Source of the DNA: Gammaproteobacteria bacterium
GTDB lineage: Bacteria; Pseudomonadota; Gammaproteobacteria; JABDGN01
DNA length: 63,260 bases
Assembly (NCBI GenBank): GCA_034112285.1
Contig: JAWUVP010000083.1
Coordinates: 1 to 63,260 of the forward strand
Direction of reading: 5' to 3'
Part shown: piece by piece, positions 46,207-63,260 of the stretch
How positions within the stretch are numbered: the stretch's first letter is position 1
Layout of the letters: every line of letters starts with the position of its first letter
Made by a program: the position numbers and the translations under genes
Notes under the pieces: generated by a model
What the model saw: only the letters and a program-made list of their open reading frames with translations
Database searches by the model: none
Told to the model about the DNA's origin: nothing

Positions 46207-47366
<1,160 letters not shown>

Positions 47367-47367
<1 letters not shown>

Positions 47368-48215: not shown

Positions 48216-48310
48216 TATTAATAATTATACGATTTTCTAGCCCGTTTTGCGAGTACCGAAGTGACGCGGTCTCCCTGTGTGCCAGGATAGTTGTTGTCTT
48301 TTTCAGCATT

Positions 48311-48590: not shown

Positions 48591-48734
48591 TTGAGGCTGA
48601 ATTCTTATCGCTCCTCGCGTCATAATCGATTAAAATAGGGTAAATCTATATTATTTTAGCCCGACAATATTAGCTTCTTAAGACTCTGGAAGCCAGCGAT
48701 TTTGCGGTCTTCTAGATCGGTTCTTCCGAGCTGG

Positions 48735-49712
48735 CTAATCAAAACTGTCCTGCCACAGCCCTTCATAATTGGTAGTCGATAACCATTTCCTATATTCCAT
48801 GGCAACCAAATCATTTTTAGTTAATTGATTCATTAAGCTAATGTTTTTTTGACGATTATTATCCTGACCTACTAGCACCCGAGAATCTTCTTCATTAACT
48901 TTTGTAAGAATGAATTCCATAAAAAATTTTGCGATTGGAGTAGAGCTGATTTTAAAGGTAAGGGTGTCAAAGTCTGAATAAACGTAATGAAAAACTCGCG
49001 TCATATTTTTTTGGTAAGGCACTATAAAGAATAAAGCCACCATTTTCTTCTTATGTTTCAAAAACTCATAATGAATTAAGTTTGGATAGACAAACTTAAT
49101 ATTAGTAAACTTTATTTTCCCATGTTTTTTATGGTCCACCGTTACGTTAAAACCAGATTCCGTTTTTTCACCTAGTTGGAACTCCATGGCATTAAAGCGG
49201 AACAGCCTGTTCAGGGTGTTTTTATGCACAAATGGCACGTGTGATATATCAAGAATGTTTTCCAAATACAAATCAAATGGCGCTTGCACATCCCAAGAGT
49301 AGACAAGGGAATTTTTTTCTTTGCGATCAAATTCAATTTCATCATGACATTGTTCTTTGTCGCCAGCCCATATCCAAATAACATTATATTTTTCTACGCA
49401 AGGTAAGGCTGTAGCATTTGCTGCTTTAGGGATGGGGAGTGTTCCACCATCAAGGGATGGTATTTTACTGCAGACGCCCTTTTTTGCAAAGCACCAGTTG
49501 TGGTAAGCACAGGTTAACTCACCATGCCTAACTCGACCAAGTGATAGTGGCGCGCCTCTATGTGGACAATGATCTTCTAAGCAAGTGGCCATGCCATCTT
49601 TATCACGATACAAAACGAAGGCTTTATCAAAAAGGTAAATTTTTACTGTTTTATTGGCCTTCAGTTTTTTAGTTAATAATACAGGGTACCAATTTTGTTG
49701 AAAATCAAACAC
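48735..49712 (-). CDS. Rieske [2Fe-2S] non-heme-iron oxygenase
   Basis: Rieske motif CPHRGAPLSLG...CAYHNW (C-x-H...C-x2-H). Mononuclear iron motif NILDISHVPFVH (D-x2-H-x4-H). GTG start overlapping the upstream stop (TAGTG). Confidence 0.85.
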   Translation of the reverse strand: MFDFQQNWYPVLLTKKLKANKTVKIYLFDKAFVLYRDKDGMATCLEDHCPHRGAPLSLGRVRHGELTCAYHNWCFAKKGVCSKIPSLDGGTLPIPKAANATALPCVEKYNVIWIWAGDKEQCHDEIEFDRKEKNSLVYSWDVQAPFDLYLENILDISHVPFVHKNTLNRLFRFNAMEFQLGEKTESGFNVTVDHKKHGKIKFTNIKFVYPNLIHYEFLKHKKKMVALFFIVPYQKNMTRVFHYVYSDFDTLTFKISSTPIAKFFMEFILTKVNEEDSRVLVGQDNNRQKNISLMNQLTKNDLVAMEYRKWLSTTNYEGLWQDSFD

Positions 49713-51403
49713 TAGTCTTTTTTCCTTATGTTTTGAAATGGGATAAAGGGAGGTATATCATCTTGAGAAACCACTATCTCAATCACGAATGTTTTTTCAT
49801 TATTAGCAGCATAATTTTCAAGTGCTGTTTCAAGTTGCTTGGTCGTAACACACCGGTAACAAATTAGTTGCGGGGCATCGCACAAGCTTTGTACAGCCTG
49901 GGCAGGATGTACATCTGCATAGGTTGCACTAATCACTCTATTTTCGAAAAATAATTTTTGGCGAGTAGCACACATACCATGTTTATTGTTGTTGAATATA
50001 ATAAAGAGTATGGGTAACTTAAGTTCCACTGCGGTATGAATTTCAAAACCACTCATTAAAAATCCACCATCACCGACGAAGACAATTGAGCGCTGATCTT
50101 TGCTTGAATACAGTTGACCACCAATGGCCGCAGGTATGGCATAGCCCATATTACCCATTCCCAGAGCAATGAAGGTTTTCGTGTGATCAGAAAATTTCAG
50201 GTAATGTGCCGCAGTCGCAACACAATCACCAGCATCAAAATAGATATTATCCACTTTACTCACTGATGACTGGAGCTGATTTAAAATGGGGATGAGGTTA
50301 TGGTCACTGGCCACAATTTGTCGTTTGAATTTAGGAACGGTATTATCCCTTCCATTTTTGACTATAGATAGATTAGGTGATAGCTCCATCAGTGTATTTA
50401 AAATATGATTAGTCTCACCTTCAATAACATTATCTATATTAACAATACATTTCGCTAAACCAGCATCTTTACCAATATACACACAGTTGGTTTCATTCAT
50501 GCTATTACTAATGCCAAAAGTCGTCATCACGCTTAGGTCACACTCTATCGCTATGAATAAATCAACGTGTTTCTCTATATACTGATGCAAATCGGTATGA
50601 CCACAGATACCAACAAGACCAATATGTCTTGCATTATTTTGCAGACTGGCTCCAACATCTGCTAATGAGCTAGCAATAGAACAATTGTAATGATTGGAAA
50701 ATTTTTCTAGCACATTAGCATCTAATGAGAACTTCACATGTTTGCCAAGCAAAATCAATGGGTTATTTGCAGCTTCGAGCCGAGAATTAATCTGGTGATA
50801 CAGTTGGTTAGGCGTATTTAATTCTCTCTGCCGAAAATTATTGAGCTGGAACAAAGAGGTGTAGTCGGTAAGGTCGACTTCCATCGTAAATAAATCACTC
50901 GGTATCAACAACACGCCAGGTCCAAGACGTTTGTCAAAAATTGTGGTTAAGATATGTAGCATTGTTTGTTGAAAATCAGTTTTTGAGCTGATTTTCACAA
51001 CACATTTGCTGATTGATTCAAATAATTGCACAGCATTAACTGTATTTTTCGCTCCAGATGAATCTTGAAAAGCGCCCTTACCTTCAAGTCTGGTAGGAGG
51101 TTGCCCAATAATGGCAAGCAAGGGTACCCCATCAGCAAAAGCTTCTGCAATACCAACGGCAAGATTCATCATGCCACCACCAGAGGTTGCGCAACAAACG
51201 CCAAGTGTATTATGTGTTCTGGCTACGCCATCAGCCATAAAAGCGGCCGCGGATTCATGCTTTGCTAAAATAGCATCAATTTTACCATCACCCACACGAT
51301 ACATAGCATCATGAAAATGTTCAATATTTGCACCGCTGACGCCAAAAACATATCGTACCTGTAATGTTTTTAAAATTTCAACCAAGGCATCTGCTAGTAA
51401 CAT
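49712..51403 (-). CDS. Thiamine-diphosphate-dependent enzyme, acetolactate-synthase large-subunit-like
   Basis: N-terminal Pyr domain (ADALVEILKTLQVRYVFGVSGANIEHFHDAM). C-terminal ThDP motif GDGGF...(24 aa)...NNN (VGDGGFLMSGFEIHTAVELKLPILFIIFNNNKHG). RBS GAGGA. Confidence 0.85.
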   Translation of the reverse strand: MLLADALVEILKTLQVRYVFGVSGANIEHFHDAMYRVGDGKIDAILAKHESAAAFMADGVARTHNTLGVCCATSGGGMMNLAVGIAEAFADGVPLLAIIGQPPTRLEGKGAFQDSSGAKNTVNAVQLFESISKCVVKISSKTDFQQTMLHILTTIFDKRLGPGVLLIPSDLFTMEVDLTDYTSLFQLNNFRQRELNTPNQLYHQINSRLEAANNPLILLGKHVKFSLDANVLEKFSNHYNCSIASSLADVGASLQNNARHIGLVGICGHTDLHQYIEKHVDLFIAIECDLSVMTTFGISNSMNETNCVYIGKDAGLAKCIVNIDNVIEGETNHILNTLMELSPNLSIVKNGRDNTVPKFKRQIVASDHNLIPILNQLQSSVSKVDNIYFDAGDCVATAAHYLKFSDHTKTFIALGMGNMGYAIPAAIGGQLYSSKDQRSIVFVGDGGFLMSGFEIHTAVELKLPILFIIFNNNKHGMCATRQKLFFENRVISATYADVHPAQAVQSLCDAPQLICYRCVTTKQLETALENYAANNEKTFVIEIVVSQDDIPPFIPFQNIRKKD

Positions 51404-51416
51404 CGTGAATCCTCGG

Positions 51417-53081
51417 CTATAGCGTAATTGTTTTAAGAATGGATAAGCTTTCTTGTTTAAGATATTGCAATAGGAGCTGCTTTTTTATTTTTAAGGATGA
51501 TGTCATGGGTAATTGCTCAACAATAAAGATTTTTTTGACCCGTCCACTGGGCTCTAGCTCGACTTGGCGTACTTTAAAGGCTGCGGTTAACGAGTGGCTA
51601 TGTGCTTCTAGGTTTTTCAGATTGATTTTAAAATCTGGTGTAAGGATAGCGACAGCTACTATTTCTTCATCTATTTCATAAGGAATAATCGCGAGTTCTT
51701 TTATGCCTTCAATATCGGCATAAACCTCTTCTAATCGATTTAAAAAATATTTTTTACCATCCAATGCAACTAAAACATCCTGTTGCCGTCCCATGATTGT
51801 AATATTACCATCCACTATTTTTGCCAAATCCCCTGTTTTTAGCCAGCCATCAACAAGCACCTCATTCGTAGCACCAGGATTATTGAAATACCCCATCATT
51901 ACAGCCGGGCCTTTAATCCAAAAGAGACCAATATTGTCCTGATTAACTTCAGTCAACTTTGTTTGCAGACCTCGAAAAGGCGTTCTTTTTAAATGATTAT
52001 AATTCAGCACTAGCGTTTGACTAATAGCACAACCTCCAGTTTCAGTCATCCCCCAACCGTCAACAACAGGCAATCCTAATTTAAAAAAATATTTTTGTAG
52101 TGATACAGGGAGCGCAGAACCACCACTGAAAATCATCTTAACGCGCCCACCGAATTTTTTATGTACAGGATAAAAGACATACTTTCTAATATTGAATTTA
52201 TAAAATGTTATTTTTTCAGTAATACTGCACAAGCCAGATAGCACAAGAAAAATTGCTTTTTTAACAGTAGACTTTTCTAAGTTACTTTTTATCATTTCAG
52301 CATAGACTTTAAGTAATTTTGGCACAACAGGAAAAAGGCTTGGCTTAAAGGTACTGAAAAATTTACGCATCAGGTTGGGATTCATGTCATTAATAATACC
52401 AAGACGACCGCCATTTAAAAATATCATGAAGAAATTAATAGTAAATCCAGAAACATGATGGTTGGGGAAGAACCACATTACTTTCACTGTTTCAATCACT
52501 TTTTTAGGCATGAAATGACAGAGATTATGAGTCATGAATAGAATGTTTTTCGTGCTCAGCATAACACCTTTTGGGCTATTATTTGTGCCAGAAGTATGCA
52601 TGATTACGCTAGGCTTATTTGGTAAGTTAATATGTTGTGAATCGGTTATATTCACTCTAGGAAGTTGTGTGGCAGGATTAACAAAATCTACTAGATCAAT
52701 AAACGTCTCAATGCCTTTAAATGCTCGAAGCTCTGATCGTTTTTTTTGTGACACTAACGTATATTTCGGCTGCAAATCTGCTAGACATTGTTGCAATTGG
52801 TCAGATGGCATCTTCGAGTCGACAGGCGCTAAAATAGCATTAAGTTTAAGGCCAGCTAATAGACCTATGGTAAAATTAATACTGTTTTCAGTAAAAAAAA
52901 CAATAATATCTTGTGCTTGAACATAGGTAGATAGATGGTCACTTAGCGTGATCACCTTTTCTAATAACTGCCTATAGCTAATAGAAATAATGTCGCCATT
53001 AGACAGATATTCATCAATAGTTCTTTCAGGGTTATTGAGCATCACTTTTTCAAGTGCGGCGTACAAAACAGTTGAGCTCAT
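51417..53081 (-). CDS. Adenylate-forming acyl/aryl ligase (AMP-binding; fatty-acyl-AMP/CoA-ligase-like)
   Basis: A3-like HTSGTNNSPKGV, GWGMTETGG and WLKTGDLA motifs, with a C-terminal catalytic Lys region SSLKIKK. Confidence 0.85.
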   Translation of the reverse strand: MSSTVLYAALEKVMLNNPERTIDEYLSNGDIISISYRQLLEKVITLSDHLSTYVQAQDIIVFFTENSINFTIGLLAGLKLNAILAPVDSKMPSDQLQQCLADLQPKYTLVSQKKRSELRAFKGIETFIDLVDFVNPATQLPRVNITDSQHINLPNKPSVIMHTSGTNNSPKGVMLSTKNILFMTHNLCHFMPKKVIETVKVMWFFPNHHVSGFTINFFMIFLNGGRLGIINDMNPNLMRKFFSTFKPSLFPVVPKLLKVYAEMIKSNLEKSTVKKAIFLVLSGLCSITEKITFYKFNIRKYVFYPVHKKFGGRVKMIFSGGSALPVSLQKYFFKLGLPVVDGWGMTETGGCAISQTLVLNYNHLKRTPFRGLQTKLTEVNQDNIGLFWIKGPAVMMGYFNNPGATNEVLVDGWLKTGDLAKIVDGNITIMGRQQDVLVALDGKKYFLNRLEEVYADIEGIKELAIIPYEIDEEIVAVAILTPDFKINLKNLEAHSHSLTAAFKVRQVELEPSGRVKKIFIVEQLPMTSSLKIKKQLLLQYLKQESLSILKTITL

Positions 53082-53098
53082 GAGAAGGCTGTTTCCTT

Positions 53099-53344
53099 TT
53101 AGATATCAGTTGAGTTGATCAAGTTATCTGCCACGTCTTGAATTGTGTCTATTTCTTCGTATTTATCATAGGCAATAGTTTTATTCATTTTACTATCAAT
53201 GGCGGTTAGAAGTGACATTATTTGGACAGAGTCCATCGAAAGATCATTTGTCAAACTCATCCCTGGACTAATTTCACCAACAGGTTTGCCTAATTGCTTA
53301 GCCACGATTACAACCAATTTTTCGACGGTCTTAGATGTTGACAT
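53099..53344 (-). CDS. Free-standing acyl/peptidyl carrier protein
   Basis: About 81 aa with the phosphopantetheine attachment motif LSMDSVQIMSL. Immediately upstream (in transcription order) of the ligase. Confidence 0.8.
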   Translation of the reverse strand: MSTSKTVEKLVVIVAKQLGKPVGEISPGMSLTNDLSMDSVQIMSLLTAIDSKMNKTIAYDKYEEIDTIQDVADNLINSTDI

Positions 53345-53421
53345 AATGCACCTCATATTCAAGTTTAATTGCTAAAAGGACGCAGTAAGAAGCTACGTGC
53401 AATCCCGGTATTTGTGAAGTT

Positions 53422-54066
53422 TTATAACAACTTATTTTTATGACGATATTCTAAAATATGCTTAATGTTTTGCAACTCAACGTAATGTCCAGCATAAAAA
53501 AGTGGCCATAAATCTCCCACCCAATACTCACGTTCTTTTAGTGCTGTTTCAGGGTAAGGATTCTCATCATAATTTGGGTGACGACAATTAGTCCAAAGTA
53601 CAACACAACCGGGTTTGCCTAAAACAAGTTCAGCAGGTACAACACGCATAAGGTAAATCATCCATAAATGCTGACTTTGATCCCAAGCACAGTGATAATC
53701 TATAGTCATTGCCTCTTTATTAGTGATAGTTTTGAAAAACATTTTGGTATCTTCACCATTCGTTTCACCGATGGCATCTATTGAAACAAACAGTCCTGGT
53801 TGTTCAGTGTCAGGAATAACCTCACGTGTACTATAAGTCCATTCAGCCAAATTATAACTATCAGCCAGATAATTAAACGCGTCTTCAGGTGGGCAATCGA
53901 TATATTCTTCAACAGTAATATACTGGCCATACACAGCATCATGTTCATAGACTGAGTGCGTTAGTTCAACAGAATGCATTTGCATTTTTTCAAGAGGGCA
54001 ATTTTCAACGCGTAAAACACCGTTAAGCGCATTAATTTCGGATTCAATTTTTGAGTTTGCGGGCAC
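53422..54066 (-). CDS. Hypothetical protein, 214 aa (fold not recognised; SRPBCC/cyclase-like is only a guess)
   Basis: GTG start overlapping the dehydrogenase stop (TAGTG), so probably translationally coupled. No motif I can name. Confidence 0.6.
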   Translation of the reverse strand: MPANSKIESEINALNGVLRVENCPLEKMQMHSVELTHSVYEHDAVYGQYITVEEYIDCPPEDAFNYLADSYNLAEWTYSTREVIPDTEQPGLFVSIDAIGETNGEDTKMFFKTITNKEAMTIDYHCAWDQSQHLWMIYLMRVVPAELVLGKPGCVVLWTNCRHPNYDENPYPETALKEREYWVGDLWPLFYAGHYVELQNIKHILEYRHKNKLL

Positions 54067-55241
54067 TAAGCTCTCCTTTTGGCTGTGTTAGTCTTTTGAT
54101 TGAAATCAAGATATCGTACACTTTGCTCTATCAAGATACTAGAAATTTTATTAAGTGTCTTCATCGGCCAATTCTCATCGGCAACCTCAACACTTAATGC
54201 CTGGCTATAAAGTAATGAGTTACCAGCACTCGTTAGCCAACTAGGAAATACAATGATCCCTTTAGCCGTGGCTTGGTCACGTAATGCTAGGTTAGTAAAA
54301 GGTAAATTGGCACCTGCTAGAATATAATTGGTCACACTATCACTAAAGGTATGGTCTTGTATCACATCAAGCAGTTCAGCATCAATGGCATAGCGGTTAG
54401 CACATAAAGCGATACAATTCGCTTTGTGCTCTCTTAGTGCGCTATGCCAATGTACACGAATATTGGTGGGATCTGCCGGTTGCCACTGTGTGGCAGCTGA
54501 TGAAATATAGAGTGGGTAAAGTTGTTCAAGAGTACTAAAATTAGGATTTTCAACGCGCAGTTGAATGAGCTGCTCAATATCAATACCAGTTTCACAGGCC
54601 ATATAGCCCGAGTGATCAACAATATTGATAATATCAGCGATGCCACTCTGATGCAGATAGTAGGCTAGGCTGTTACCAATTTTTCCGAAACCTTGTAAAA
54701 TAATTCGTAACCGTTGTTGGCTAACGTGTTTCATCAGTTCTGTGATGCTGTAACCCACTGCAGATTTTTCAAGATTGAAATATTTGTTTATTGGTAATGT
54801 AACGCGATCTGCAAGTTTGGAACACTGATTTGGGATGCCTAATTTTTCTGCGTGCATTTGTCCTAAGGCATAAAAAGCAGAATCAAGCCCCATCCCTTGA
54901 ACAATTTTTTCAATGACGGCTGCATCCGTATTCAAATCAGCGCCGGTGCCCCATGACTGCTTAAGCTGTGGTTCACAATATTGTAAAAATTCAGTTAACA
55001 CCGCCAATGAATCTGGGTGCTGTGGATTAAATCGAATGCCAGCCTTCGCACCACCAAAAGGTATTTCATTAAGTTGGTTTTTTAGTGTCATGTTTTGAGC
55101 CAGTTCACTCACCTCAGATAATGAGGCATCTTGTTGCATGAATGTACCACCACCACAGGCACCATTGATTAACTGATTGATAACAAGCCACCCATCAGCG
55201 TCGAAAGTTTGGCTATTCCAGTTAATGATATGTTGTGGCAT
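54066..55241 (-). CDS. Glu/Leu/Phe/Val-family amino-acid dehydrogenase
   Basis: Family active-site signature IPFGGAKAGIRFNP (G-G-x-K). Rossmann motif LQGFGKIGNSLA. The track start 55256 is a TTG, so the ATG at 55241 (MPQHIINW) is preferred. Confidence 0.85.
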   Translation of the reverse strand: MPQHIINWNSQTFDADGWLVINQLINGACGGGTFMQQDASLSEVSELAQNMTLKNQLNEIPFGGAKAGIRFNPQHPDSLAVLTEFLQYCEPQLKQSWGTGADLNTDAAVIEKIVQGMGLDSAFYALGQMHAEKLGIPNQCSKLADRVTLPINKYFNLEKSAVGYSITELMKHVSQQRLRIILQGFGKIGNSLAYYLHQSGIADIINIVDHSGYMACETGIDIEQLIQLRVENPNFSTLEQLYPLYISSAATQWQPADPTNIRVHWHSALREHKANCIALCANRYAIDAELLDVIQDHTFSDSVTNYILAGANLPFTNLALRDQATAKGIIVFPSWLTSAGNSLLYSQALSVEVADENWPMKTLNKISSILIEQSVRYLDFNQKTNTAKRRA

Positions 55242-55383
55242 AAGTAATTGTCTCAATAATAAATAGTTAAGCTATCAAATATCCTTTTGTTGTTCCTCGG
55301 CATGATAGTATTATCTTTACCTTTTCTGTCCTTTGGCCTCTAATTATACAGAAAACTATGCAAATAGAAAAGATCTTTTTCTT

Positions 55384-55410
55384 TTTGTACACCTATTTGT
55401 ACACCTATTT
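55384..55410. promoter_or_regulatory. Tandem 12-bp direct repeat, each copy containing the palindrome TGTACA
   Basis: TTTGTACACCTA TTTGTACACCTA TTT, about 145-170 bp upstream of the dehydrogenase start on the minus strand. Confidence 0.4.
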
Positions 55411-55535
55411 CAATATTGCTGAGAATTTAAGTCACCAAGATTACACCGCATATCATCGTTAAAATATATGAATTTTAAATGGATTACCTAAGAAGGAATA
55501 TTTTCAGAAATAAAATCACGATTTTAGGATAGAAA

Positions 55536-56823
55536 GTGCAGGTTAAAGTGGCCCCCAAAGTCAACACCAAAAAGTGACTGGTATAAGAGGTAGTCTCCTG
55601 TTAATAAACACTAAAATTCAAGCAATCATTATCCCTTGAGCTGATTCACCAGCATAAACCTGGGCAGGTGTTTTATATCCCAAGGATTGATGATTTCGCT
55701 CTTGGTTGTAATAAACAAAATACTCACCAATATATTTGTTAGCTTCAGCGACAGTCGTGAGGTTCCTGAGGTAAACACACTCATATTTCACACTTCGCCA
55801 TAATCGCTCTATAAAAATATTGTCCAATGCGCGACCTTTACCATCCATGCTGAGCTGGATGTTTTTTGCCAAAATTATTGCTGTGAATTTAGGGCTCGTA
55901 AACTGTGAACCCTGATCACTATTAAATATTTCACAGCTACCCGTCGCTAAAGCCACATTCAGTGTTTCAATACAAAAGTCTACTTCCATTGTGGTACTGA
56001 TAGACCATGCAATAACGTAACGACTAAACCAGTCTATAATCGCGACTAAATAGACAAAGCCACCTGATAACCGAATGTAAGTGATGTCAGTGCTCCACAC
56101 CTGATCGACTTGATTTATTAACAACCCGCGTAATAAATAAGGATACACCTTATGCGCTACATTCCGTTTGCTCAGGTTTTTCTTTGGATAAATGGCCTCT
56201 ATCCCCATGAGCTTATATAACCGCTGTAATCGATTACGATTCACTGTGTATCCCTGCAAGTGAAGATAAACCACCATTCGTCGAGTTCCGATAAAAGGGT
56301 GTCGTGTATACTCTTCATCTATCAGATGCATCAATTCAATTGATAGACTATCCATGCAAACTGCTTCGTAATATAAGCTAGAGCGTGGGAGTGATAGCAA
56401 CTCACATTGTCGCCGGACACTAAGTGCTTTGCTATCATTATCAACCAGTTTTCGGAGCTTAGCTGCTGAACAGTTCAGATTTTTTTTCAACCAGTCGCGT
56501 TCAACTGTTAATCGTCCAATTTGTTCATAAAGCTCATCGACCAAGCTTTCCTGAGCATTCTCCTTGCCACGGCGCTTGTCTGAAAAAATATCAGGCACAC
56601 CCGCTAGAAGTTGCTTTTTCCAGGTTGATATCTGTGTGCTGTGCACCTTATATTTTGACGTTAATTCATTTTGGGTAAGTGCCCCTTTCACTGCTTCCAG
56701 GGCTATCTTACCTTTTTCTGCTCCGCTGTAACTCTTGCGCTTTCCTGTCATTTTTGCTCCTCGTTTGGTGGAGAATAACATCTTATTCACTGGTACAGTT
56801 TTAGGGTCCATTATATGTTGCAC
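55536..56823 (-). mobile_element. IS3-family insertion sequence (about 1.29 kb)
   Basis: Contains an OrfAB-type transposase. Imperfect terminal inverted repeats GTGCAGGTTAAAGTGGCCCCCAAA (left) versus GTGCAACATATAATGGACCCTAAA (reverse complement of the right end). No clear target-site duplication seen. Confidence 0.7.
55618..56751 (-). CDS. IS3-family transposase, OrfA and OrfB fused in one frame
   Basis: HTH part MTGKRKSYSGAEKGKIALEAVKG..TQNELTSKYKVHSTQISTWKKQLL. Leucine zipper. DDE integrase core (WSTDITYI ... NSDQGSQFTS ... ERLWRSVKYE). An A8 run (T8 at 56480-56487 on +) lies at the usual frameshift site. Confidence 0.85.
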   Translation of the reverse strand: MTGKRKSYSGAEKGKIALEAVKGALTQNELTSKYKVHSTQISTWKKQLLAGVPDIFSDKRRGKENAQESLVDELYEQIGRLTVERDWLKKNLNCSAAKLRKLVDNDSKALSVRRQCELLSLPRSSLYYEAVCMDSLSIELMHLIDEEYTRHPFIGTRRMVVYLHLQGYTVNRNRLQRLYKLMGIEAIYPKKNLSKRNVAHKVYPYLLRGLLINQVDQVWSTDITYIRLSGGFVYLVAIIDWFSRYVIAWSISTTMEVDFCIETLNVALATGSCEIFNSDQGSQFTSPKFTAIILAKNIQLSMDGKGRALDNIFIERLWRSVKYECVYLRNLTTVAEANKYIGEYFVYYNQERNHQSLGYKTPAQVYAGESAQGIMIA

Positions 56824-56848
56824 CGATAAGCTATTAATAAGAATTATA

Positions 56849-58030
56849 TTATATCTTCAATTGTCTCCTAAAATAGATCATACATATCAATACACTAACA
56901 ACAACAAAAGACACCGCTAGCGGAAGCTGTGAATTTTCGTTTAATATAATTGCGAAAAAACTAATAAAGCTTGTTACGATAATTTGAATTACGCCATATA
57001 ATGCACTAGCAACGCCAGCACAGTGAGCAAATGGCTCAATTGCCTCAATCATTGTATTAGCAGAGATAAATGCAACACCGATAAAAGTGAAAAACATAGG
57101 TATCAAGATGTAAATTAATTTTGTTCCACAAAGATAATATAAGAAAATCATTAAAAAAGAACTTACTATTAACGAGAAAATTCCAATAACAATCATTCTA
57201 TGCACTCCCATACGCATAACCAAAAATCCATTCACAAAGCTGCCTACACTAAGGGCTAAAGCGTTAAAGAATGAAAGCCAACCATACTGTATGACTGTCA
57301 ATCCTAATTTATGCTGATAGAGAAATGGAGTGATGGTCATATACAATATGACACAAGCATATGCTAGACCAGAGGAAAAGGCATTAGTAAAAAACTTCTT
57401 ATGTAGTAATATTTCTCTACAAGTTGCACCAAGACGTTTCCATACTAATTTTTTTTTATGTTCAGATAACAATGTTTCAGGACAAAAAAGAAGTATCGCG
57501 ATAGCGACTAAGCTAGAAATTATAAATAATAAGAAGAAATTTGCTTGCCAATTGAACATATCTTGCACATATCCACCAATAGTTGGGGCAAGTGGCGGAG
57601 TTAAAGTAATTACCATAGTCAGATATGAACTTATTTTGGCCAACTTGTTACCAGCATATCTATCTTTCATCATTGCTCTAATTACAGCACCTGGTGCTCC
57701 AGCTCCAACACCTTGTATCAGTCTACTAATCAGAAAAATATAAACTGAAGTAGAAACGATTGCTAACAATGAACCCATGATGAAAATCAGCATTCCTATA
57801 AGTATTATTGGTTTTCTGCCATAGCTATCAGATAAAAAGCCATATAATAACTGTACAGTCCCCATACCCAATAAATATATTGATATTGAGATTTGAATCA
57901 AACCTGGGTTAGCGTGAAAATATTTTGCAATATAAGGAAAGGAAGGAATAAAGCTATCTATTGCAAACTGACTAACAATTGCTAATAAAACAATAAACAG
58001 AAAAATATCTTTACCTTTTTTTAAGGTCAT
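56849..58030 (-). CDS. MFS efflux transporter, Bcr/CflA (DHA1) type
   Basis: LLYGFLSDSYGRKPIIL, SRLIQGVGAGAPG and a 12-TM profile. Its ATG overlaps the NRPS TGA (ATGA at 58027-58030). Confidence 0.85.
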   Translation of the reverse strand: MTLKKGKDIFLFIVLLAIVSQFAIDSFIPSFPYIAKYFHANPGLIQISISIYLLGMGTVQLLYGFLSDSYGRKPIILIGMLIFIMGSLLAIVSTSVYIFLISRLIQGVGAGAPGAVIRAMMKDRYAGNKLAKISSYLTMVITLTPPLAPTIGGYVQDMFNWQANFFLLFIISSLVAIAILLFCPETLLSEHKKKLVWKRLGATCREILLHKKFFTNAFSSGLAYACVILYMTITPFLYQHKLGLTVIQYGWLSFFNALALSVGSFVNGFLVMRMGVHRMIVIGIFSLIVSSFLMIFLYYLCGTKLIYILIPMFFTFIGVAFISANTMIEAIEPFAHCAGVASALYGVIQIIVTSFISFFAIILNENSQLPLAVSFVVVSVLICMIYFRRQLKI

Positions 58031-61000
58031 TGTATTTCCTTTTTAAGGATATCATTAAAAATATTCACGAGACTATCTAGCTCCTCTTTGAATATCGACC
58101 AATGATCAGCATTAAGCTGATAATAATCGACTACAGCACATAAAGACTTCCATTTTTCAATGTCACCATTTGCTATTGCTATAAAATAATTATTAACTAG
58201 TTCACTTGCTTCAGGATCTTCTAATTTCCCTTTAGCTTTAATAAAAGCTACATCCAAACTGCTCGGCTCTAATTTGCACTTTTTAAGCATTTCCATTTCA
58301 GCTATAATAACCTTCTTTTGGCGCAGAGCAAAGCTAGAAGGTAGCTTGCTATCTAGTCGTTTTTCCAATAGCTCATCTAGTAGCACATTTAAATTATTTA
58401 TGTCTAACATGTCATGAAGAAGATAGCTATCTATAATAATTGTTTTATAGATAGAAACGCCTTTTTTTCCTAGAAGACAGGCTATTTTGTAGGCTAAAAC
58501 ACCACCGAAAGACCATCCAGCTATAAAAATAGATTCATTTTTAATAATATTATCTAATATATAAGCAGTATATAATTTAGCCAACACATCAATGTCATTT
58601 ATGAGTTCACCTTCACTAAATAAATTATAAGAATCCACGCCATACACTGAATATTTTTCATCTAATTTTTCAGCAAGAGGTAGATATGAATAACATCCCC
58701 CACCTCCTGGATGTATAATGAATAACTTCACCGATGACGAGTCTTCGTTCAATTTAACTATCGGCTCATATAGTAATTTATTTTTTTCCACTTGAAGTTC
58801 AGTAGCTTGTTTTTTTATCGTCGTATTTTTAAAAATCCATTGGCTTGAAATATTTATCTTGAATTCTTTTTTCAATTGTTCTGCTAACTGCATGGATTTC
58901 AAGGAATCACCGCCTTGTATAAAAAAACTATCGTTTACCGATATTATATTCGTTTGCAAGACATCCCGCCAAATTTTATAAAGTTTGTTCTCAGTAGGTG
59001 TGGATGGTTTATCATTCACACAACCAAAACACTCTTTATCTGCCAACTCTCTCAGCTGTCTATAGTCTGTTTTCCCAGCTTTTGTCAAAGGAATAGCAGC
59101 TAACATCTTATATATACCTGGAAGCATGAATATTGGTAACAAATCATCCATATATTCTCTAAGATCAGACAAACAGAATTCATGTTGTGATTCGTAGAAA
59201 ATAGCAATCATCTGATTCTTATTAACGACAGTAGCCACCCGAGAAATATCGCCCATACTTAAAAGTGCAGCTTCAATCTCCCCTAACTCTATTCTAAAAC
59301 CACGTATCTTCACTTGGCCATCTATACGACCTATGAACTGTAGTTTTCCTTCGGGTAACCAGCGCACCAGATCACCCGTCCGATACAGCTTCCCTTCACC
59401 ATAAGGATTCGCTATAAATTTCTCCCGGGTTAATTCTGCCCTGTTCAAATATCCTCGAGCTACGCCATCACCACCAACATGTAATTCTCCTGGGACACCA
59501 GGAGGACATAACAGTCCATATTTGCTCAGTACGTAACATGTTGTATTTTTCACGGGTGTACCAATTGAAACCTCTTGTTCTATTTCATTATTATTACTCA
59601 CAATCTCTTTAGTAGAAAATACCGTGTTCTCAGTTGGCCCATAACAATTAATTAACGAAACCGACTTGTTGTTTTTAAAAAATGTTTTTACAACATTTGA
59701 TTGTAATTTTTCACCACCGAGATAGATTGTAGAAAGTTTTGAAAACAATTCGTTATCACTCCTTAGAACATTGTCAAAAAATGATGGTGTTAAAAAAATA
59801 TGTTGAATTTTTTTCTGATATAAGTAGGATTTAAACTTACCAACATCCAACAAAGTTTTCTTATTCACACATACTAATGTAGCACCTCGCAACAATGTAA
59901 CCCAAACTTCAAAGGTTGCCGCATCAAAAGATATATTTGATAAATGCGCAACTCTTTCGCTAGGCGTGAATTTTATATAATCTGAATCGTATGCCAAGCT
60001 AGTAACCGAGTGTTGCTCCACCATAACGCCCTTTGGCTTGCCTGTAGAACCAGAAGTATAAAGAACATAAGCCAAATCACTTCCACACACGTCAATATCA
60101 GGCCTATCCCCTTGATAGTTATCTAAAGTAGCATCTACACTCTCTAAACAAATAATTTTATTTTGAGACGTCGACATACAAAACTTACTTTCAGAAAGTA
60201 TTTTAGTACTCAAGACTAATTCACACGCGGAATCTTCAAGCATATACTGTAAGCGTGACTCGGGGTATTCTGGGGAAAGCGGCATATAGGCTCCACCCGA
60301 TTTTATAATCGCTAACATCGCTATGACTGAATTGATACCTCGTTCTAAGCATACACCGATCAGCATATCTCTTAACAATGGCTTATTCGTTCTTCGCTGA
60401 TAGTGTTCTCGAATAAAATGGGCTAGTTGATTAGTTTTCTTATCAAGTTCACCATATGTTAGTTCTCGCTCACCTTCAATCAATGCTATATTTTGTGCAT
60501 TAAGTTTTGCTTGATCCGAAAACAGCTCTGCTAATGATTCTTTCTTTGGATAAGCTTGCACGGTATTATTCCATGTACTTAATAGTTTTGTTTTTTCATC
60601 ATTATCAAGCAACGGCACTTCCATCATTTTCTTGTTTGGTGATATTATTATCCACTTTAACACTAAATCCAAATGTAACAATAAATTTTCTACATAATAT
60701 GGTAAGAAAACCTCCCTATCATATGCGATATCAACCATCAAATTATCACTCAAGCTAATTGAAATGACTAAAGGGTAATTTGTCTTTTCTTGCCCCAGTA
60801 ATTTATCAAAATTAAGCTTATTCGCTTCATCTTTACTGTCACCGACCGGATAATTTTCAAAGACATACAAACTGTAAAATAAAGGCAGCTCATTACTAAT
60901 ATCACTCTGAGCCTGAACCTCACCCAATGTCAAATAACTGTACTGATTCGATAATTGCATACGCTCATGTTGGCGCTGCAAGTGACTCAACACATCACCC

Positions 61001-63260
61001 TCAGTATCTACCGTAAAACGTAACGGCAATGCATTGATGAATAAACCCACCATCTTATCAACATCGACCAGCTCAGCAGGACGCCCCGATACTGTCACGC
61101 CCATCAGCACATCATCACTGTCACTATAACGTGATAACACTATTCCCCATGCCAATTGCATTAACGCATTCAGCGTCACATTATTCTCACGTGCAAACTG
61201 CTCACATGACCTCGTTAACACCTCGGATAGCTCATGACGAACCTTACCTAATGACCTTATGGGCTTATGAATATCTAGCAGACCTTGGTTTATTCCTAAT
61301 GGGGTTGGCCCCTCTAGACCTGCCAACTCTTCTCGCCAGTATGCCTTACCTTCTGATTTGTCTTGACTCTGTAACCAACCTATATATCGCTCATAGCGTG
61401 GTGGGGTAATTAACTTAGCTGACCGTCCTGACAATAATGCACTGTAACGGGCTTTTAACTCATTAAACAGTAACGGTAAACACCAACCATCGAGTAATAT
61501 GTGATGATGACTCCATATAAAGCGATATTCTGTTTCGCTGAACTTAATGCAATGGAAGCGCATGATACAAGGTTTGCTTACATCAAATCCTCGATTTCTA
61601 TCCTCTAGTAAACAATCGGTATATCTTTGCTCTTGATCTAATTGATTTAAGCTGCTCCAATCTTCTTCATTCCAAGGTAATGCCACTTCTTTTTGGACAA
61701 TTTGAACTGGGTTATTTAAGGTCTCCCAAGCAAAACGGGTACGTAGAATGGCGTGAGATTTTACGATACCATGCCAAGCTTGTTTTAATGACGCTGTATT
61801 TACCTGCCCTGTATGATGCCAGTGTAGCTGAGTGTTATATTGGTCTGAACTCGGCGAATGCAGCGCATGGAAGAGAAGTCCTTCCTGTAATGGCGTTAGT
61901 GCATAGATATTGTCTATTGTATTGGCCTTATTTAAACCTTCTCCTGTTAGCAGGTTATCCAATGATGCTTGATCTAAATTTGATAATGGGTAGTCTGAGG
62001 GGGTTCTTTGCAACGTGCTTTTTAAGCTGCAACAATCTATTACTTGAACTAATGATTGATAAAACTTACTCTCCCAACCATTATATAATTCTTCGTCATA
62101 TCTCACATCAAAAGTTAGTATGTTATTGAGAACATAACCATTAATTTCAAGAACATTCTCTGCGAACGAATTAGCATGAGAAATATCGACACCTGAGTAC
62201 TCGTTTGTAATATTTATATTTTGTTCATTACTTCCATTAGAATCTAATACGCCTAAATAGTTAAAAACTATATCAATATCATCAAGAATTGACAAATACT
62301 TTTGTGTTTCCACAGAGCCATTATACCGAAGCAAGCCGAAGCCTAATCCTTTAGCTGGGACATTTCGCATTTGCTCTTTGACATCTTTTATTAATCCACC
62401 TACATCTTTAGACGAACATTCAGATCTTAGTTTTAAAGGATAAATCGAAGTAAACCATCCAACAGTCTCAGATAAATCTATCTCACTTGATATCTCTTCT
62501 CTTCCATGACCTTCCAGATTCAAATGCACTGAATCAACACCATTAAACTTATAGCACGTCAATAAAAATGCGGTCATAAACAAATCATTAATCGTTGTAT
62601 TAAACTTATTCGATGAACTGTTTAATAATTGAATAGTTTGTCTTTCACAAAGTTCTATTTTACTTGTTTTTAATTCATGTCGCCTTATATGATTCCGAGG
62701 AACGTAGTTATTTGCTACGTTTTTCCAATACATCAACTCATCACTGTTTTGTATGCTAGTAGTGTACTCTTGCAAAAAACCACTCCACTTTTTATAACTT
62801 GATGATTTATATAAATCCTCTGCATAACCACTTAATAACTTATTTAAATCTGACAAAATTATTCGCCATGACACCATATCAATAATCAAATGATGAGCAA
62901 CCATGAGTAATTTCTTTGCTGATGGACTGACAAACAAAACAAACCTTACAATCGGTCCGTCTTCGATATTAATATAACAGTGCTCCGCATCACAGAGAAC
63001 AAGCATTTCTTTGTGATCAATTGTTCCATCGAGTTCTATTTCTTGATAACTGTACTGATCATTATCACTATATTTTTGCAACCACCCGCAATCATTCCTA
63101 TTAAATTTTATTCTAAAGCAATCGTGATGCTTTACTAGCTTCCTTATTGACTCCTCAATATCGAATTTAGAAACATCATTGTTAATATTAAATATGAAGC
63201 TCTGATTAAAGTGATTTTTCGCAGGAAGCTCTTTACTAAAAAACCATTTCTGTATAGGTA
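58027..63260 (-). CDS. Non-ribosomal peptide synthetase, C-terminal part: E - C - A - T - TE (5' end outside the window)
   Basis: The frame stays open to nt 63260 (PIQKWFFSKELPAKNHFNQSFIF..., the start of an E domain).
E motif: HHLIIDMVSWRI.
C motifs: LTPLQEGLLFH, HHILLDGWC.
A motifs: LAYVLYTSGSTGKPKG, FDAATFE, NCYGPTE, YRTGDL, GRIDGQVKIRGFRIELGEIE, PLTKAGKTD.
T motif: GGDSLKS (Ser codon 58903-58905).
TE motif: GWSFGG. Confidence 0.92.
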   Translation of the reverse strand, partial: PIQKWFFSKELPAKNHFNQSFIFNINNDVSKFDIEESIRKLVKHHDCFRIKFNRNDCGWLQKYSDNDQYSYQEIELDGTIDHKEMLVLCDAEHCYINIEDGPIVRFVLFVSPSAKKLLMVAHHLIIDMVSWRIILSDLNKLLSGYAEDLYKSSSYKKWSGFLQEYTTSIQNSDELMYWKNVANNYVPRNHIRRHELKTSKIELCERQTIQLLNSSSNKFNTTINDLFMTAFLLTCYKFNGVDSVHLNLEGHGREEISSEIDLSETVGWFTSIYPLKLRSECSSKDVGGLIKDVKEQMRNVPAKGLGFGLLRYNGSVETQKYLSILDDIDIVFNYLGVLDSNGSNEQNINITNEYSGVDISHANSFAENVLEINGYVLNNILTFDVRYDEELYNGWESKFYQSLVQVIDCCSLKSTLQRTPSDYPLSNLDQASLDNLLTGEGLNKANTIDNIYALTPLQEGLLFHALHSPSSDQYNTQLHWHHTGQVNTASLKQAWHGIVKSHAILRTRFAWETLNNPVQIVQKEVALPWNEEDWSSLNQLDQEQRYTDCLLEDRNRGFDVSKPCIMRFHCIKFSETEYRFIWSHHHILLDGWCLPLLFNELKARYSALLSGRSAKLITPPRYERYIGWLQSQDKSEGKAYWREELAGLEGPTPLGINQGLLDIHKPIRSLGKVRHELSEVLTRSCEQFARENNVTLNALMQLAWGIVLSRYSDSDDVLMGVTVSGRPAELVDVDKMVGLFINALPLRFTVDTEGDVLSHLQRQHERMQLSNQYSYLTLGEVQAQSDISNELPLFYSLYVFENYPVGDSKDEANKLNFDKLLGQEKTNYPLVISISLSDNLMVDIAYDREVFLPYYVENLLLHLDLVLKWIIISPNKKMMEVPLLDNDEKTKLLSTWNNTVQAYPKKESLAELFSDQAKLNAQNIALIEGERELTYGELDKKTNQLAHFIREHYQRRTNKPLLRDMLIGVCLERGINSVIAMLAIIKSGGAYMPLSPEYPESRLQYMLEDSACELVLSTKILSESKFCMSTSQNKIICLESVDATLDNYQGDRPDIDVCGSDLAYVLYTSGSTGKPKGVMVEQHSVTSLAYDSDYIKFTPSERVAHLSNISFDAATFEVWVTLLRGATLVCVNKKTLLDVGKFKSYLYQKKIQHIFLTPSFFDNVLRSDNELFSKLSTIYLGGEKLQSNVVKTFFKNNKSVSLINCYGPTENTVFSTKEIVSNNNEIEQEVSIGTPVKNTTCYVLSKYGLLCPPGVPGELHVGGDGVARGYLNRAELTREKFIANPYGEGKLYRTGDLVRWLPEGKLQFIGRIDGQVKIRGFRIELGEIEAALLSMGDISRVATVVNKNQMIAIFYESQHEFCLSDLREYMDDLLPIFMLPGIYKMLAAIPLTKAGKTDYRQLRELADKECFGCVNDKPSTPTENKLYKIWRDVLQTNIISVNDSFFIQGGDSLKSMQLAEQLKKEFKINISSQWIFKNTTIKKQATELQVEKNKLLYEPIVKLNEDSSSVKLFIIHPGGGGCYSYLPLAEKLDEKYSVYGVDSYNLFSEGELINDIDVLAKLYTAYILDNIIKNESIFIAGWSFGGVLAYKIACLLGKKGVSIYKTIIIDSYLLHDMLDINNLNVLLDELLEKRLDSKLPSSFALRQKKVIIAEMEMLKKCKLEPSSLDVAFIKAKGKLEDPEASELVNNYFIAIANGDIEKWKSLCAVVDYYQLNADHWSIFKEELDSLVNIFNDILKKEIQ

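What the first reader, a model, noticed from the sequence alone, without database searches (positions are those of the whole stretch)
49712..55241. Amino-acid dehydrogenase plus ThDP-dependent ALS-like enzyme: a ScyB/ScyA-like keto-acid generating and coupling pair?
In scytonemin biosynthesis a Leu-dehydrogenase homologue (ScyB) oxidatively deaminates an amino acid to its 2-oxo acid. An acetolactate-synthase homologue (ScyA) then performs a ThDP-dependent acyloin coupling of two aryl-pyruvates. The same two enzyme families are present here. The first shows the GGAKAGI active site and a GFGKIGN Rossmann motif. The second shows a GDGGF...NNN ThDP motif. Both sit in one operon with an NRPS. A comparable logic would supply a building block that ordinary NRPS clusters do not use. 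Options are deamination followed by carboligation or decarboxylation, or the reverse, reductive amination of a ThDP-derived keto acid to a non-proteinogenic amino acid. The analogy rests on family membership only.
Basis: inference. Interest (0 to 1): 0.7.

Follow-up and report, generated by a model that had tools for sequence, protein, structure and literature searches.

The report
Split carbazole-type alkaloid gene cluster
The amino-acid dehydrogenase and the acetolactate-synthase-like enzyme are real and probably do make and couple a keto acid, but they belong to a six-gene module of the bacterial carbazole-alkaloid type, not to the neighbouring NRPS.

Summary
Both enzymes and all three quoted motifs are present. 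They lie in a tightly packed six-gene minus-strand operon (48735-55256): ELFV dehydrogenase, 214-aa protein, ACP, AMP-ligase, ThDP enzyme, Rieske oxygenase.

It matches the carbazole synthase CqsB2 (PDB 6ipv, E 9e-40), and four of five proposed catalytic residues are kept. In 80 related genome loci this cyclase sits near a KASIII-like enzyme (79/80) and a ThDP enzyme (72/80). That is the CqsB1/B2/B3 (NzsJ/I/H) carbazole core.

The dehydrogenase belongs to a rare, GDH-derived clade that lacks the glutamate gamma-carboxylate lysine. It was found only in such clusters, where it takes the place of the usual aminotransferase.

So "deaminate, then ThDP carboligation" is supported. The closest system is carbazole biosynthesis, not scytonemin.

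The NRPS link is not supported. A 1.3-kb IS3 element intervenes, and homology to a close relative covers only the six genes.

The KASIII-like gene is missing from the window. It occurs on another contig of a sequencing run that also holds this module, next to a stub of the dehydrogenase gene. The cluster therefore appears to be split.

This is a new variant of a known kind, of moderate interest.

The parts
54066..55256 (-). ELFV-family amino-acid dehydrogenase. It is 391 aa from the ATG at 55241 and 396 aa from the TTG at 55256. Its proposed role is oxidative deamination of tryptophan (or another aromatic amino acid) to the 2-oxo acid, in place of the aminotransferase CqsB7/NzsD.
   Evidence: Pfam PF02812 and PF00208 match. 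Both active-site lysines (K54, K66) and D102 are invariant in its clade. The GDH gamma-carboxylate Lys is replaced by an invariant Gly30, and the Arg of the GGxR motif by Phe. The clade is tiny, and all five relatives' contexts examined carry KASIII-like and ThDP genes.
53422..54066 (-). CqsB2/NzsI-like cyclase (carbazole-synthase family, Bet v1/SRPBCC-like), 214 aa. Its start overlaps the dehydrogenase stop.
   Evidence: PDB 6ipv CqsB2 matches at E 9.4e-40, with 40% identity over 186 aa. CqsB2 residues Y144, Y172, H206 and E209 correspond to Y138, Y166, H194 and E197, all invariant in the family. E105 aligns with A98, next to the invariant D97. No Pfam family matches. The only NCBIfam hit is a weak one to ScyC.
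53099..53344 (-). Stand-alone acyl carrier protein. It is 81 aa from the ATG at 53344; the longest ORF starts at 53362. The phosphopantetheine serine lies in MDSVQ (53222-53236).
   Evidence: Pfam PP-binding 1.9e-8 and NCBIfam ACP models.
51417..53081 (-). ANL-superfamily AMP-binding ligase, 554 aa. Its proposed role is to load a carboxylic acid onto the adjacent ACP as the acyl donor.
   Evidence: Pfam AMP-binding 4.8e-49. All NCBIfam hits are below their cutoffs. The TSGTNNSPKG motif is present. No solved structure matches at E<=1e-25. An ACP-plus-ligase pair is conserved in L083 and L088.
49712..51403 (-). ThDP-dependent acetolactate-synthase-like enzyme, 563 aa. [quoted passage not shown]
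   Evidence: Three TPP domains are present. The best solved relatives are BbmA (1e-51) and CsmA. It falls below every AHAS cutoff (255 vs 538 bits). It is 48% identical to the ThDP enzyme of the Legionella MAG cluster L003, and it groups with cluster-associated ThDP enzymes in a tree that has no outgroup.
48735..49712 (-). Rieske [2Fe-2S] non-haem-iron oxygenase, 325 aa. It is the probable tailoring hydroxylase. Its start overlaps the ThDP gene's stop.
   Evidence: Pfam Rieske 2.5e-23 and VanA_C 3.7e-14. The closest structures are SxtDIOX/SxtT and DdmC. It is conserved at 90% aa identity in L083.
55537..56822 (-). IS3-family insertion sequence (1286 bp) that separates the module from the MFS and NRPS genes.
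   Evidence: Pfam rve, HTH_21 and HTH_28 match. Terminal inverted repeats are TGCAAC.../...CCTGCA, and no flanking direct repeat was recognised.
56849..63260 (-). MFS transporter (56849-58030) and the terminal NRPS module (58027 to beyond 63260; partial C or E, then C-A-T-TE). They are neighbours, not a demonstrated part of the module.
   Evidence: Pfam domains. The ORF runs off the window end. No homology to the relative's cluster flanks was found.

Best explanation
The two enzymes belong to a six-gene operon (48735-55256, minus strand). This operon is the larger half of a bacterial carbazole-type (CqsB/Nzs-like) alkaloid pathway in an uncultured gammaproteobacterium.

Proposed steps. Only homology is shown here; all chemistry is inferred from the characterised CqsB/Nzs enzymes.
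1. The ELFV dehydrogenase oxidatively deaminates L-tryptophan to indole-3-pyruvate using NAD(P)+. It replaces the PLP aminotransferase CqsB7/NzsD.
2. The ALS-like ThDP enzyme decarboxylates pyruvate and adds the C2 unit to the keto group of indole-3-pyruvate. [quoted passage not shown]
3. The AMP-ligase loads a carboxylic acid onto the stand-alone ACP.
4. A KASIII-like enzyme (CqsB1/NzsJ type) condenses the acyl-ACP with the keto acid, with loss of CO2. This enzyme is not encoded in the window. It is apparently encoded at a second locus.
5. The CqsB2-like cyclase closes ring A onto indole C2 to give the tricyclic carbazole.
6. The Rieske oxygenase hydroxylates the product.

The adjacency to the NRPS and MFS genes is a by-product of rearrangement around an IS3 element.
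For: - The cyclase matches CqsB2 at E 9e-40, and Y138, Y166, H194 and E197 are conserved and invariant.
- In 80 genome loci holding the closest cyclase relatives, a KASIII-like gene lies within 6 kb in 79, a ThDP enzyme in 72 and an aminotransferase in 57.
- The literature assigns these roles. CqsB7 converts Trp to indole-3-pyruvate; CqsB3 couples it with pyruvate; CqsB1 adds acyl-ACP; CqsB2 makes the carbazole. Homologous clusters are reported in Gram-negative bacteria and cyanobacteria (PMC7466098; PMC11610953).
- The dehydrogenase clade holds about 20 proteins at E<1e-28. All five relatives' contexts examined (L003, L088, L089, L091, L092) carry KASIII-like and ThDP genes, and four also carry the cyclase.
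- L088 shows the order DH-cyclase-KASIII-ACP-ligase.
- The dehydrogenase keeps its catalytic residues but has lost the glutamate-specific Lys.
- All six genes are intact. dN/dS against L083 is 0.05-0.17.
- A KASIII-like gene at least 90% identical to L083's occurs in run SRR25824425. The same run holds a contig 99.9% identical to the window. The KASIII-like gene lies next to a P450 pseudogene and the first ~48 nt of the dehydrogenase gene, which is the complementary breakpoint.
Against: - No enzyme here has been assayed.
- The cyclase is only 40% identical to CqsB2, and CqsB2's Glu105 is not conserved.
- All 80 loci belong to a sister subfamily (37-47% identical to CqsB2) whose products are unknown.
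- The amino-acid substrate of the dehydrogenase is inferred from context only.
- The window contains no KASIII-like gene.
- That the KASIII contig belongs to the same genome rests on co-occurrence in one sequencing run and in JGI data, not on a closed assembly.
- The ligase's acid substrate is unknown.
- I could not obtain NzsH, CqsB3 or ScyA sequences to place the ThDP enzyme explicitly.
Confidence: 0.68

Rival explanations
1. A ScyB/ScyA-like pair makes an aryl-pyruvate acyloin, or by the reverse reaction a non-proteinogenic amino acid, which the adjacent NRPS then incorporates.
For: The genes share a strand and lie next to an NRPS terminal module and an MFS exporter. The dehydrogenase gives a weak ScyB hit and the cyclase a weak ScyC hit.
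Against: A complete IS3 element lies between the two gene sets. Homology with the close relative ends about 11 nt upstream of the dehydrogenase start codon, and no NRPS lies within 10 kb on either side of the relatives' clusters. ScyB and ScyC scores are far below their cutoffs (35.6 vs 600; 23.5 vs 400). The module's conserved partners elsewhere are KASIII-like enzymes, not NRPSs.
Confidence: 0.06
2. The module is an orphaned, non-functional remnant. Rearrangement removed the KASIII-like gene, the P450 and the amine oxidase, so no carbazole is made in this organism.
For: The 63-kb window holds no KASIII-like gene. Both flanks are unrelated to those of the relative's cluster. An IS3 element and an integrase lie nearby. 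The P450 next to the relocated KASIII-like gene is a pseudogene.
Against: All six ORFs are intact, and dN/dS is 0.05-0.17. An intact 336-aa KASIII-like gene and an intact amine-oxidase gene are found in the same sequencing run and in JGI samples.
Confidence: 0.14
3. The enzyme logic is the same but the chemistry differs. The dehydrogenase acts on another amino acid (Phe, Tyr or an aliphatic one), and the cyclase subfamily, a sister group to CqsB2, forms a different ring system.
For: All 80 loci and the window protein are only 37-47% identical to CqsB2. CqsB2's Glu105 is not conserved. The dehydrogenase's specificity is not readable from its sequence. No product of this subfamily was found in the literature searched.
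Against: Four of the five CqsB2 catalytic residues are invariant. The three-gene core plus an aminotransferase is the same as in the cqs, nzs and cbz clusters. The review predicts carbazole formation for such homologous clusters.
Confidence: 0.12
4. The genes are primary metabolism: a glutamate or branched-chain amino-acid dehydrogenase plus the biosynthetic acetolactate synthase IlvB.
For: Family-level annotation points this way. Sources name close relatives 'acetolactate synthase large subunit', and the best PDB hits of the dehydrogenase are GDHs.
Against: The ThDP enzyme falls below every AHAS cutoff (255 vs 538 bits), and no AHAS small-subunit gene lies in the operon. The dehydrogenase lacks the GDH gamma-carboxylate Lys and is at most about 25-29% identical to ordinary GDHs. 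The genes sit on a low-GC island (38% vs 44%) with a cyclase, an ACP and a ligase.
Confidence: 0.01

Closest known systems
Carbazole alkaloid clusters of Streptomyces: carquinostatin (CqsB1-B7), neocarazostatin (NzsD/E/F/H/I/J) and carbazomycin (Cbz)
   Same: All have a CqsB2/NzsI-type cyclase, an ALS-like ThDP enzyme (CqsB3/NzsH role) and a stand-alone ACP (CqsB6/NzsE role). A first step makes the aryl-pyruvate, an oxygenase does the tailoring, and a KASIII-like partner is conserved in relatives.
   Different: An NAD(P)-dependent ELFV dehydrogenase stands in for the PLP aminotransferase. An ANL ligase loads the ACP, where the known clusters use a classical KASIII (NzsF/CqsB5) plus FabG. A Rieske oxygenase replaces the P450, and no prenyltransferase is present. 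The host is a gammaproteobacterium. The cyclase is only 40% identical to CqsB2. The KASIII-like gene is not in the operon and appears to lie at a second locus.
Scytonemin early steps ScyB (Trp dehydrogenase), ScyA (ThDP acyloin synthase) and ScyC (cyclase/decarboxylase)
   Same: Both use the same three-step logic: an ELFV dehydrogenase, then an ALS-like ThDP enzyme, then a cyclase acting on the beta-keto acid at indole C2. The cyclase family gives a weak but consistent hit to the ScyC model (18 of 19 members).
   Different: No component reaches the equivalog score. The dehydrogenase is GDH-like rather than of the LeuDH/ScyB type. By homology, the coupling partner here is pyruvate, not p-hydroxyphenylpyruvate. 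An ACP, a ligase and a KASIII-like enzyme add an acyl chain, which scytonemin biosynthesis does not do.
BbmA and CsmA, ThDP-dependent enzymes with solved structures (PDB 8x3x and 8x3z). [quoted passage not shown] I found no description of BbmA.
   Same: They are the closest solved structures to the window's ThDP enzyme (1e-51 and 1e-29). They score above bona fide AHAS for a Streptomyces cluster-associated enzyme as well.
   Different: Bit scores are modest (179 and 107 bits). Their pathways and substrates could not be read, because the paper is not in the library.
Glutamate dehydrogenases and Trp/Phe/Leu dehydrogenases (ELFV family)
   Same: The two-domain fold is shared, as are the GGxK catalytic Lys, the upstream carboxylate-binding Lys, the catalytic Asp and the GxGxxG Rossmann motif.
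   Different: The best match to any solved member is only 1e-14. The GDH gamma-carboxylate Lys is Gly, and the family-wide Arg of GGxR is Phe. The protein forms a small separate clade tied to carbazole-type clusters.

Membership tests
Bacterial carbazole-type (CqsB/Nzs) biosynthetic cluster | CqsB2/NzsI-family cyclase present | tested here: met
   The 214-aa protein matches PDB 6ipv CqsB2 at E 9.4e-40, with 40% identity over 186 aa.
Bacterial carbazole-type (CqsB/Nzs) biosynthetic cluster | Proposed CqsB2 catalytic residues (Glu105, Tyr144, Tyr172, His206, Glu209) conserved | tested here: inconclusive
   Y138, Y166, H194 and E197 are conserved and invariant in 19 family members. Glu105 aligns with Ala98, a variable column, next to the invariant Asp97 (residue roles from PMC7466098).
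Bacterial carbazole-type (CqsB/Nzs) biosynthetic cluster | ALS-like ThDP enzyme (CqsB3/NzsH role) encoded with the cyclase | tested here: met
   It lies in the same operon. A ThDP enzyme lies next to the cyclase in 72 of 80 loci. The window enzyme groups with these in the tree. Direct comparison with NzsH or CqsB3 sequences was not possible.
Bacterial carbazole-type (CqsB/Nzs) biosynthetic cluster | KASIII-like condensing enzyme (CqsB1/NzsJ) encoded in the cluster | tested here: not met
   tblastn found none in the 63-kb window. It is present in 79 of 80 loci and in L083, L088, L089 and L091. A copy at least 90% identical to L083's occurs on another contig of the same sequencing run, beside a stub of the dehydrogenase gene.
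Bacterial carbazole-type (CqsB/Nzs) biosynthetic cluster | PLP aminotransferase (CqsB7/NzsD) for Trp to indole-3-pyruvate | tested here: not met
   The window has no aminotransferase homologue. An ELFV dehydrogenase stands at the head of the operon instead. Among the 80 loci, 57 have the aminotransferase and 1 has the ELFV dehydrogenase.
Bacterial carbazole-type (CqsB/Nzs) biosynthetic cluster | Dedicated ACP carrying the acyl donor | tested here: met
   An 81-aa ACP with a DS motif is present. Loading by the adjacent ANL ligase is inferred.
Bacterial carbazole-type (CqsB/Nzs) biosynthetic cluster | Product is a tricyclic carbazole | not testable with these tools
   This needs reconstitution or metabolite analysis.
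Scytonemin ScyA/ScyB/ScyC set | Dehydrogenase is a ScyB (tryptophan dehydrogenase) equivalog | tested here: not met
   NCBIfam NF035922 scores 35.6 bits against a cutoff of 600. PDB GDHs score higher than TrpDH 5b37 (57.7 vs 28.9 bits).
Scytonemin ScyA/ScyB/ScyC set | ScyC cyclase/decarboxylase equivalog present | tested here: not met
   NF035924 scores 23.5 bits against a cutoff of 400, covering model positions 7-96 of 312. It is nevertheless the only NCBIfam hit, in 18 of 19 family members, which indicates distant homology only.
Scytonemin ScyA/ScyB/ScyC set | ThDP enzyme is a ScyA orthologue | not tested
   No ScyA sequence or visible ScyA model result was available. The top 25 NCBIfam hits are AHAS-type and related models, all below their cutoffs.
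Biosynthetic acetohydroxyacid synthase (IlvB/IlvI/IlvG) | Reaches the curated equivalog score and is paired with a regulatory small subunit | tested here: not met
   TIGR00118 scores 255 bits against a cutoff of 538. All 25 NCBIfam models listed (of 52 matched) are below their cutoffs. None of the five other genes in the operon is an AHAS small subunit.
Glutamate dehydrogenase | Lys that binds the glutamate gamma-carboxylate (K89 in Clostridium symbiosum numbering, which is from my own knowledge) in the GP-x-K-GG motif | tested here: not met
   GDH 'GPAKGGIR' aligns with 'GACGGGTF'. The Lys is Gly30, invariant in the clade, and the Arg is Phe.

The most novel reading that the evidence does not exclude
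The dehydrogenase, ThDP enzyme and cyclase may form an ancient three-enzyme cassette for making an indole-pyruvate acyloin and cyclising it onto the indole. This cassette would be shared by the scytonemin (ScyB/A/C) and carbazole (CqsB7/B3/B2) pathways, with this gammaproteobacterial variant as an intermediate form. The variant combines a ScyB-like dehydrogenase step with the carbazole machinery. It would use a previously unrecognised GDH-derived tryptophan dehydrogenase clade and a ligase-loaded ACP. The product would be a new alkyl-carbazole in an uncultured bacterium that may be host-associated.
Probability: 0.2. Interest if true: 0.65.

Novelty: new variant of a known kind. Interest (0 to 1): 0.42.

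Why it matters
- The work turns two generically annotated genes ('acetolactate synthase' and 'Glu/Leu/Phe/Val dehydrogenase') plus a 'hypothetical protein' into a predicted pathway that can be tested.
- It identifies a rare dehydrogenase clade that apparently replaces the aminotransferase in carbazole-type clusters. That clade is a candidate NAD(P)-dependent aromatic amino-acid dehydrogenase for biocatalysis.
- The CqsB2-like cyclase family is very widespread, with more than 600 genome loci that include many Mycobacterium species. No Pfam or NCBIfam model recognises it.
- The case is also a warning. Adjacency to an NRPS across an IS element does not imply a shared pathway, and a biosynthetic cluster can be split between loci.

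Tried and rejected
- **BbmA/CsmA literature.** Full-text searches and a DOI look-up did not retrieve the primary paper. [quoted passage not shown]
- **Promoters and terminators.** The scan of 48200-58100 gave counts at chance level, so nothing can be said about transcription units.
- **tRNA genes.** None were found that could mark island borders.
- **IS3 target-site duplication.** None was recognised. This is weak evidence for IS-mediated rearrangement.
- **KASIII-like gene in the window.** A weak tblastn hit at 45266-45442 falls inside an integrase gene and was rejected.
- **Ligase.** No solved structure matches at E<=1e-25.
- **Organism.** An Icd search found no close named relative. The best named hits are 77-79% identical (Thiolapillus, Thioalkalivibrio). 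My early guess of Legionella is not established. Only the closest genome-collection relative of the cyclase is a Legionella MAG.
- **397-aa gene downstream of the relative's cluster.** Its counterpart on L093 is only 39% identical, so it does not mark a breakpoint.
- **Not attempted.** I made no structure predictions.

Full report
**Observation**

The finding's interval lies on the minus strand. It contains five genes rather than two, and a sixth is translationally coupled at its downstream end. In order they are:
- an ELFV dehydrogenase (54066-55256; the ATG at 55241 gives 391 aa);
- a 214-aa protein (53422-54066), whose start overlaps the dehydrogenase stop;
- an ACP (53099-53344);
- an AMP-binding ligase (51417-53081);
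- a ThDP enzyme (49712-51403);
- a Rieske oxygenase (48735-49712), whose start overlaps the ThDP stop.

Pfam confirms the families with E-values far beyond chance. The block has 38% G+C, against 44% in the first 44 kb of the window.

**The overlooked gene**

The 214-aa protein has no Pfam family. It matches the solved structure of CqsB2, the carbazole synthase of carquinostatin biosynthesis, at E 9.4e-40 with 40% identity over 186 residues.

A review proposes five catalytic residues for CqsB2: Glu105, Tyr144, Tyr172, His206 and Glu209 (PMC7466098). Four of them are conserved here (Y138, Y166, H194, E197) and invariant in an alignment of 19 relatives. Glu105 aligns with a variable position next to an invariant Asp.

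**Comparative context**

The cyclase family is large. I found 829 proteins in the protein collection and at least 600 genome loci, from Mycobacterium, Streptomyces, Planctomycetota, Myxococcota and a Legionella MAG.

I examined the 80 best loci. This is a sample biased towards the query.

| Gene within 6 kb of the cyclase | Loci (of 80) |
|---|---|
| KASIII-like | 79 |
| ThDP enzyme | 72 (most exceptions are cut contigs) |
| Class I/II aminotransferase | 57 |
| ELFV dehydrogenase | 1 |
| ACP or ligase homologue | 0 |

Cyclase plus KASIII-like plus ThDP enzyme is the CqsB2/CqsB1/CqsB3 (NzsI/NzsJ/NzsH) core. The characterised pathway runs as follows:
1. An aminotransferase converts tryptophan to indole-3-pyruvate.
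2. [quoted passage not shown]
3. The KASIII-like enzyme condenses that acid decarboxylatively with an acyl-ACP.
4. The cyclase forms ring A of the carbazole (PMC7466098; PMC11610953).

The review already notes homologous clusters in myxobacteria and cyanobacteria.

One caveat applies. Every locus I retrieved, like the window protein, is only 37-47% identical to CqsB2. These proteins therefore form a sister subfamily whose products have not been determined.

**The dehydrogenase**

It is not a glutamate dehydrogenase. Aligned with GDHs, the motif GPAKGGIR reads GACGGGTF. The lysine that binds the glutamate side chain in GDHs (by my knowledge of the family) is a glycine, invariant in the clade. 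The family-wide arginine is phenylalanine. The two active-site lysines, the aspartate and the Rossmann motif are kept.

It is not a ScyB orthologue either. It scores 35.6 bits against a cutoff of 600, and solved GDHs score higher than the solved tryptophan dehydrogenase.

Its clade is very small, with about 20 proteins at E<1e-28 in 5.8 billion. All five relatives' contexts I looked at carry KASIII-like and ThDP genes, and four also carry a cyclase homologue:
- L003 and L089: O-methyltransferase, DH, cyclase, KASIII, ThDP, P450.
- L088: DH, cyclase, KASIII, ACP, ligase.
- L091: a larger cluster with fatty-acid-synthase-like genes.
- L092: ThDP, DH, KASIII. No cyclase homologue was detected there.

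The dehydrogenase therefore takes the place of the aminotransferase. Oxidative deamination of tryptophan, or another aromatic amino acid, is the most economical reading. The substrate is inferred, not shown.

**The ThDP enzyme**

It falls below every curated AHAS cutoff (255 vs 538 bits for TIGR00118) and has no small-subunit partner. Its closest solved relatives are BbmA and CsmA. [quoted passage not shown]

It is 48% identical to the ThDP enzyme of the Legionella MAG cluster. In a neighbour-joining tree it groups first with the enzymes of the other dehydrogenase-type clusters. It groups next with those of Planctomycetota, Myxococcota and Burkholderiales clusters. The tree has no outgroup. 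I could not obtain ScyA, NzsH or CqsB3 sequences, so explicit placement remains to be done.

**The NRPS link**

Between the MFS/NRPS genes and the dehydrogenase lies a complete 1286-bp IS3-family element (55537-56822). It has recognisable terminal inverted repeats and no obvious target duplication.

A close relative carries the same module. Its Icd protein is 89% identical to the window's. Nucleotide homology between the two is 87.6% and spans exactly 48736-55256, with no flanking similarity.

In that relative the neighbours are a divergently transcribed P450, a KASIII-like gene and an amine oxidase upstream. A 397-aa protein of unknown function and an integrase lie downstream. No NRPS lies within 10 kb on either side. 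The NRPS in the window is a terminal module (partial C or E, then C-A-T-TE) that runs off the contig end.

I therefore treat the NRPS adjacency as a product of rearrangement.

**The missing KASIII-like gene**

The window has none. The cluster of proteins at least 90% identical to the relative's KASIII-like enzyme contains one further member. That member occurs in sequencing run SRR25824425. The same run also yields a contig 99.9% identical to the window's module.

On the longer JGI copy of that contig (L093), the KASIII-like gene is flanked by IS3 remnants. It is followed by a degraded P450 and the P450-DH intergenic region. Then come the first ~48 nt of the dehydrogenase gene, now carrying a stop codon, and after that the sequence breaks off into the amine-oxidase gene.

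The window's homology to the relative starts about 12 nt upstream of the same start codon. The two breakpoints therefore complement each other. The housekeeping flank of L093 has 42% G+C, close to the window's 44%.

The simplest reading is that one genome carries the cluster in two pieces. This is likely but not proven.

All six genes in the window are intact, and dN/dS against the relative is 0.05-0.17. This argues against long-standing decay.

**The scytonemin parallel**

The only NCBIfam model hit by the cyclase is ScyC, weakly (E 3e-5 for the window protein, best 1e-6). The hit recurs in 18 of 19 family members and covers the N-terminal third of the model.

A dehydrogenase, an ALS-like enzyme and a cyclase acting on an indole keto acid is the ScyB/ScyA/ScyC order of events. 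None of the three reaches orthologue-level scores. The dehydrogenase appears to have been recruited independently from a GDH-like ancestor. The relationship is at most distant.

**Verdict**

The interpretation captures the chemistry in outline but names the wrong relative.

The feature is a new variant of the known carbazole-type pathway. Its distinguishing points are:
- a dehydrogenase in place of the aminotransferase;
- a ligase-loaded ACP;
- a Rieske tailoring enzyme;
- a gammaproteobacterial host;
- an apparent split between two loci.

Interest is moderate.

Noticed in passing
window 55537-56822: A complete IS3-family element (1286 bp) with a fused 401-aa transposase ORF. Its terminal repeats are TGCAAC.../...CCTGCA, and I saw no flanking direct repeat. 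The MFS gene ends 27 nt before it.
   Followed up: partly
window 58027-63260: An NRPS terminal module (partial C or E domain, then C-A-T-TE) whose reading frame continues past the end of the window. The low G+C (about 35%) extends over it and the MFS gene. The substrate of the A domain was not predicted.
   Followed up: partly
window 44906-48735: A tyrosine-recombinase integrase (44906-46123, minus strand) lies here. It is followed by a zinc alcohol dehydrogenase and an esterase resembling a formaldehyde-detoxification pair. About 520 bp of non-coding DNA then precede the module. The G+C drop begins near 48 kb, so this looks like an island border. The window has no tRNA gene.
   Followed up: partly
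L014-L082 (genome loci): The CqsB2-like cyclase family occurs in dozens of Mycobacterium/Mycolicibacterium and Streptomyces genomes in a fixed order: ThDP enzyme, cyclase, KASIII-like, aminotransferase. No Pfam or NCBIfam model recognises the cyclase, and I found no report of the mycobacterial product.
   Followed up: partly
L093 7071-14800: On the contig carrying the relocated KASIII-like gene, one P450 copy is intact (74% nt identity to the relative's). The copy next to the KASIII-like gene is degraded to a 61-aa fragment. IS3 orfA and Transposase_mut remnants surround the genes.
   Followed up: partly
L091 2050-13300: A more distant dehydrogenase-type cluster carries two FabA-like dehydratases, a KS, an ACP, a phosphopantetheinyl transferase and a cytochrome b5. 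These lie between the dehydrogenase and the ThDP-cyclase-KASIII core, which suggests a different way of building the acyl side chain.
   Followed up: no
L003 13751-15460; L083 3793-4923; L085 307-1416 and 18485-19615: The flanks of the relatives' clusters encode ankyrin, LRR and RCC1-repeat proteins, plus one protein with a weak RING-finger hit that is below Pfam's cutoff. Such eukaryote-like proteins are typical of host-associated bacteria such as Legionellales.
   Followed up: no
window 40666-43546: Two adjacent ORFs of 428 and 438 aa have no Pfam family and no similarity to each other.
   Followed up: partly
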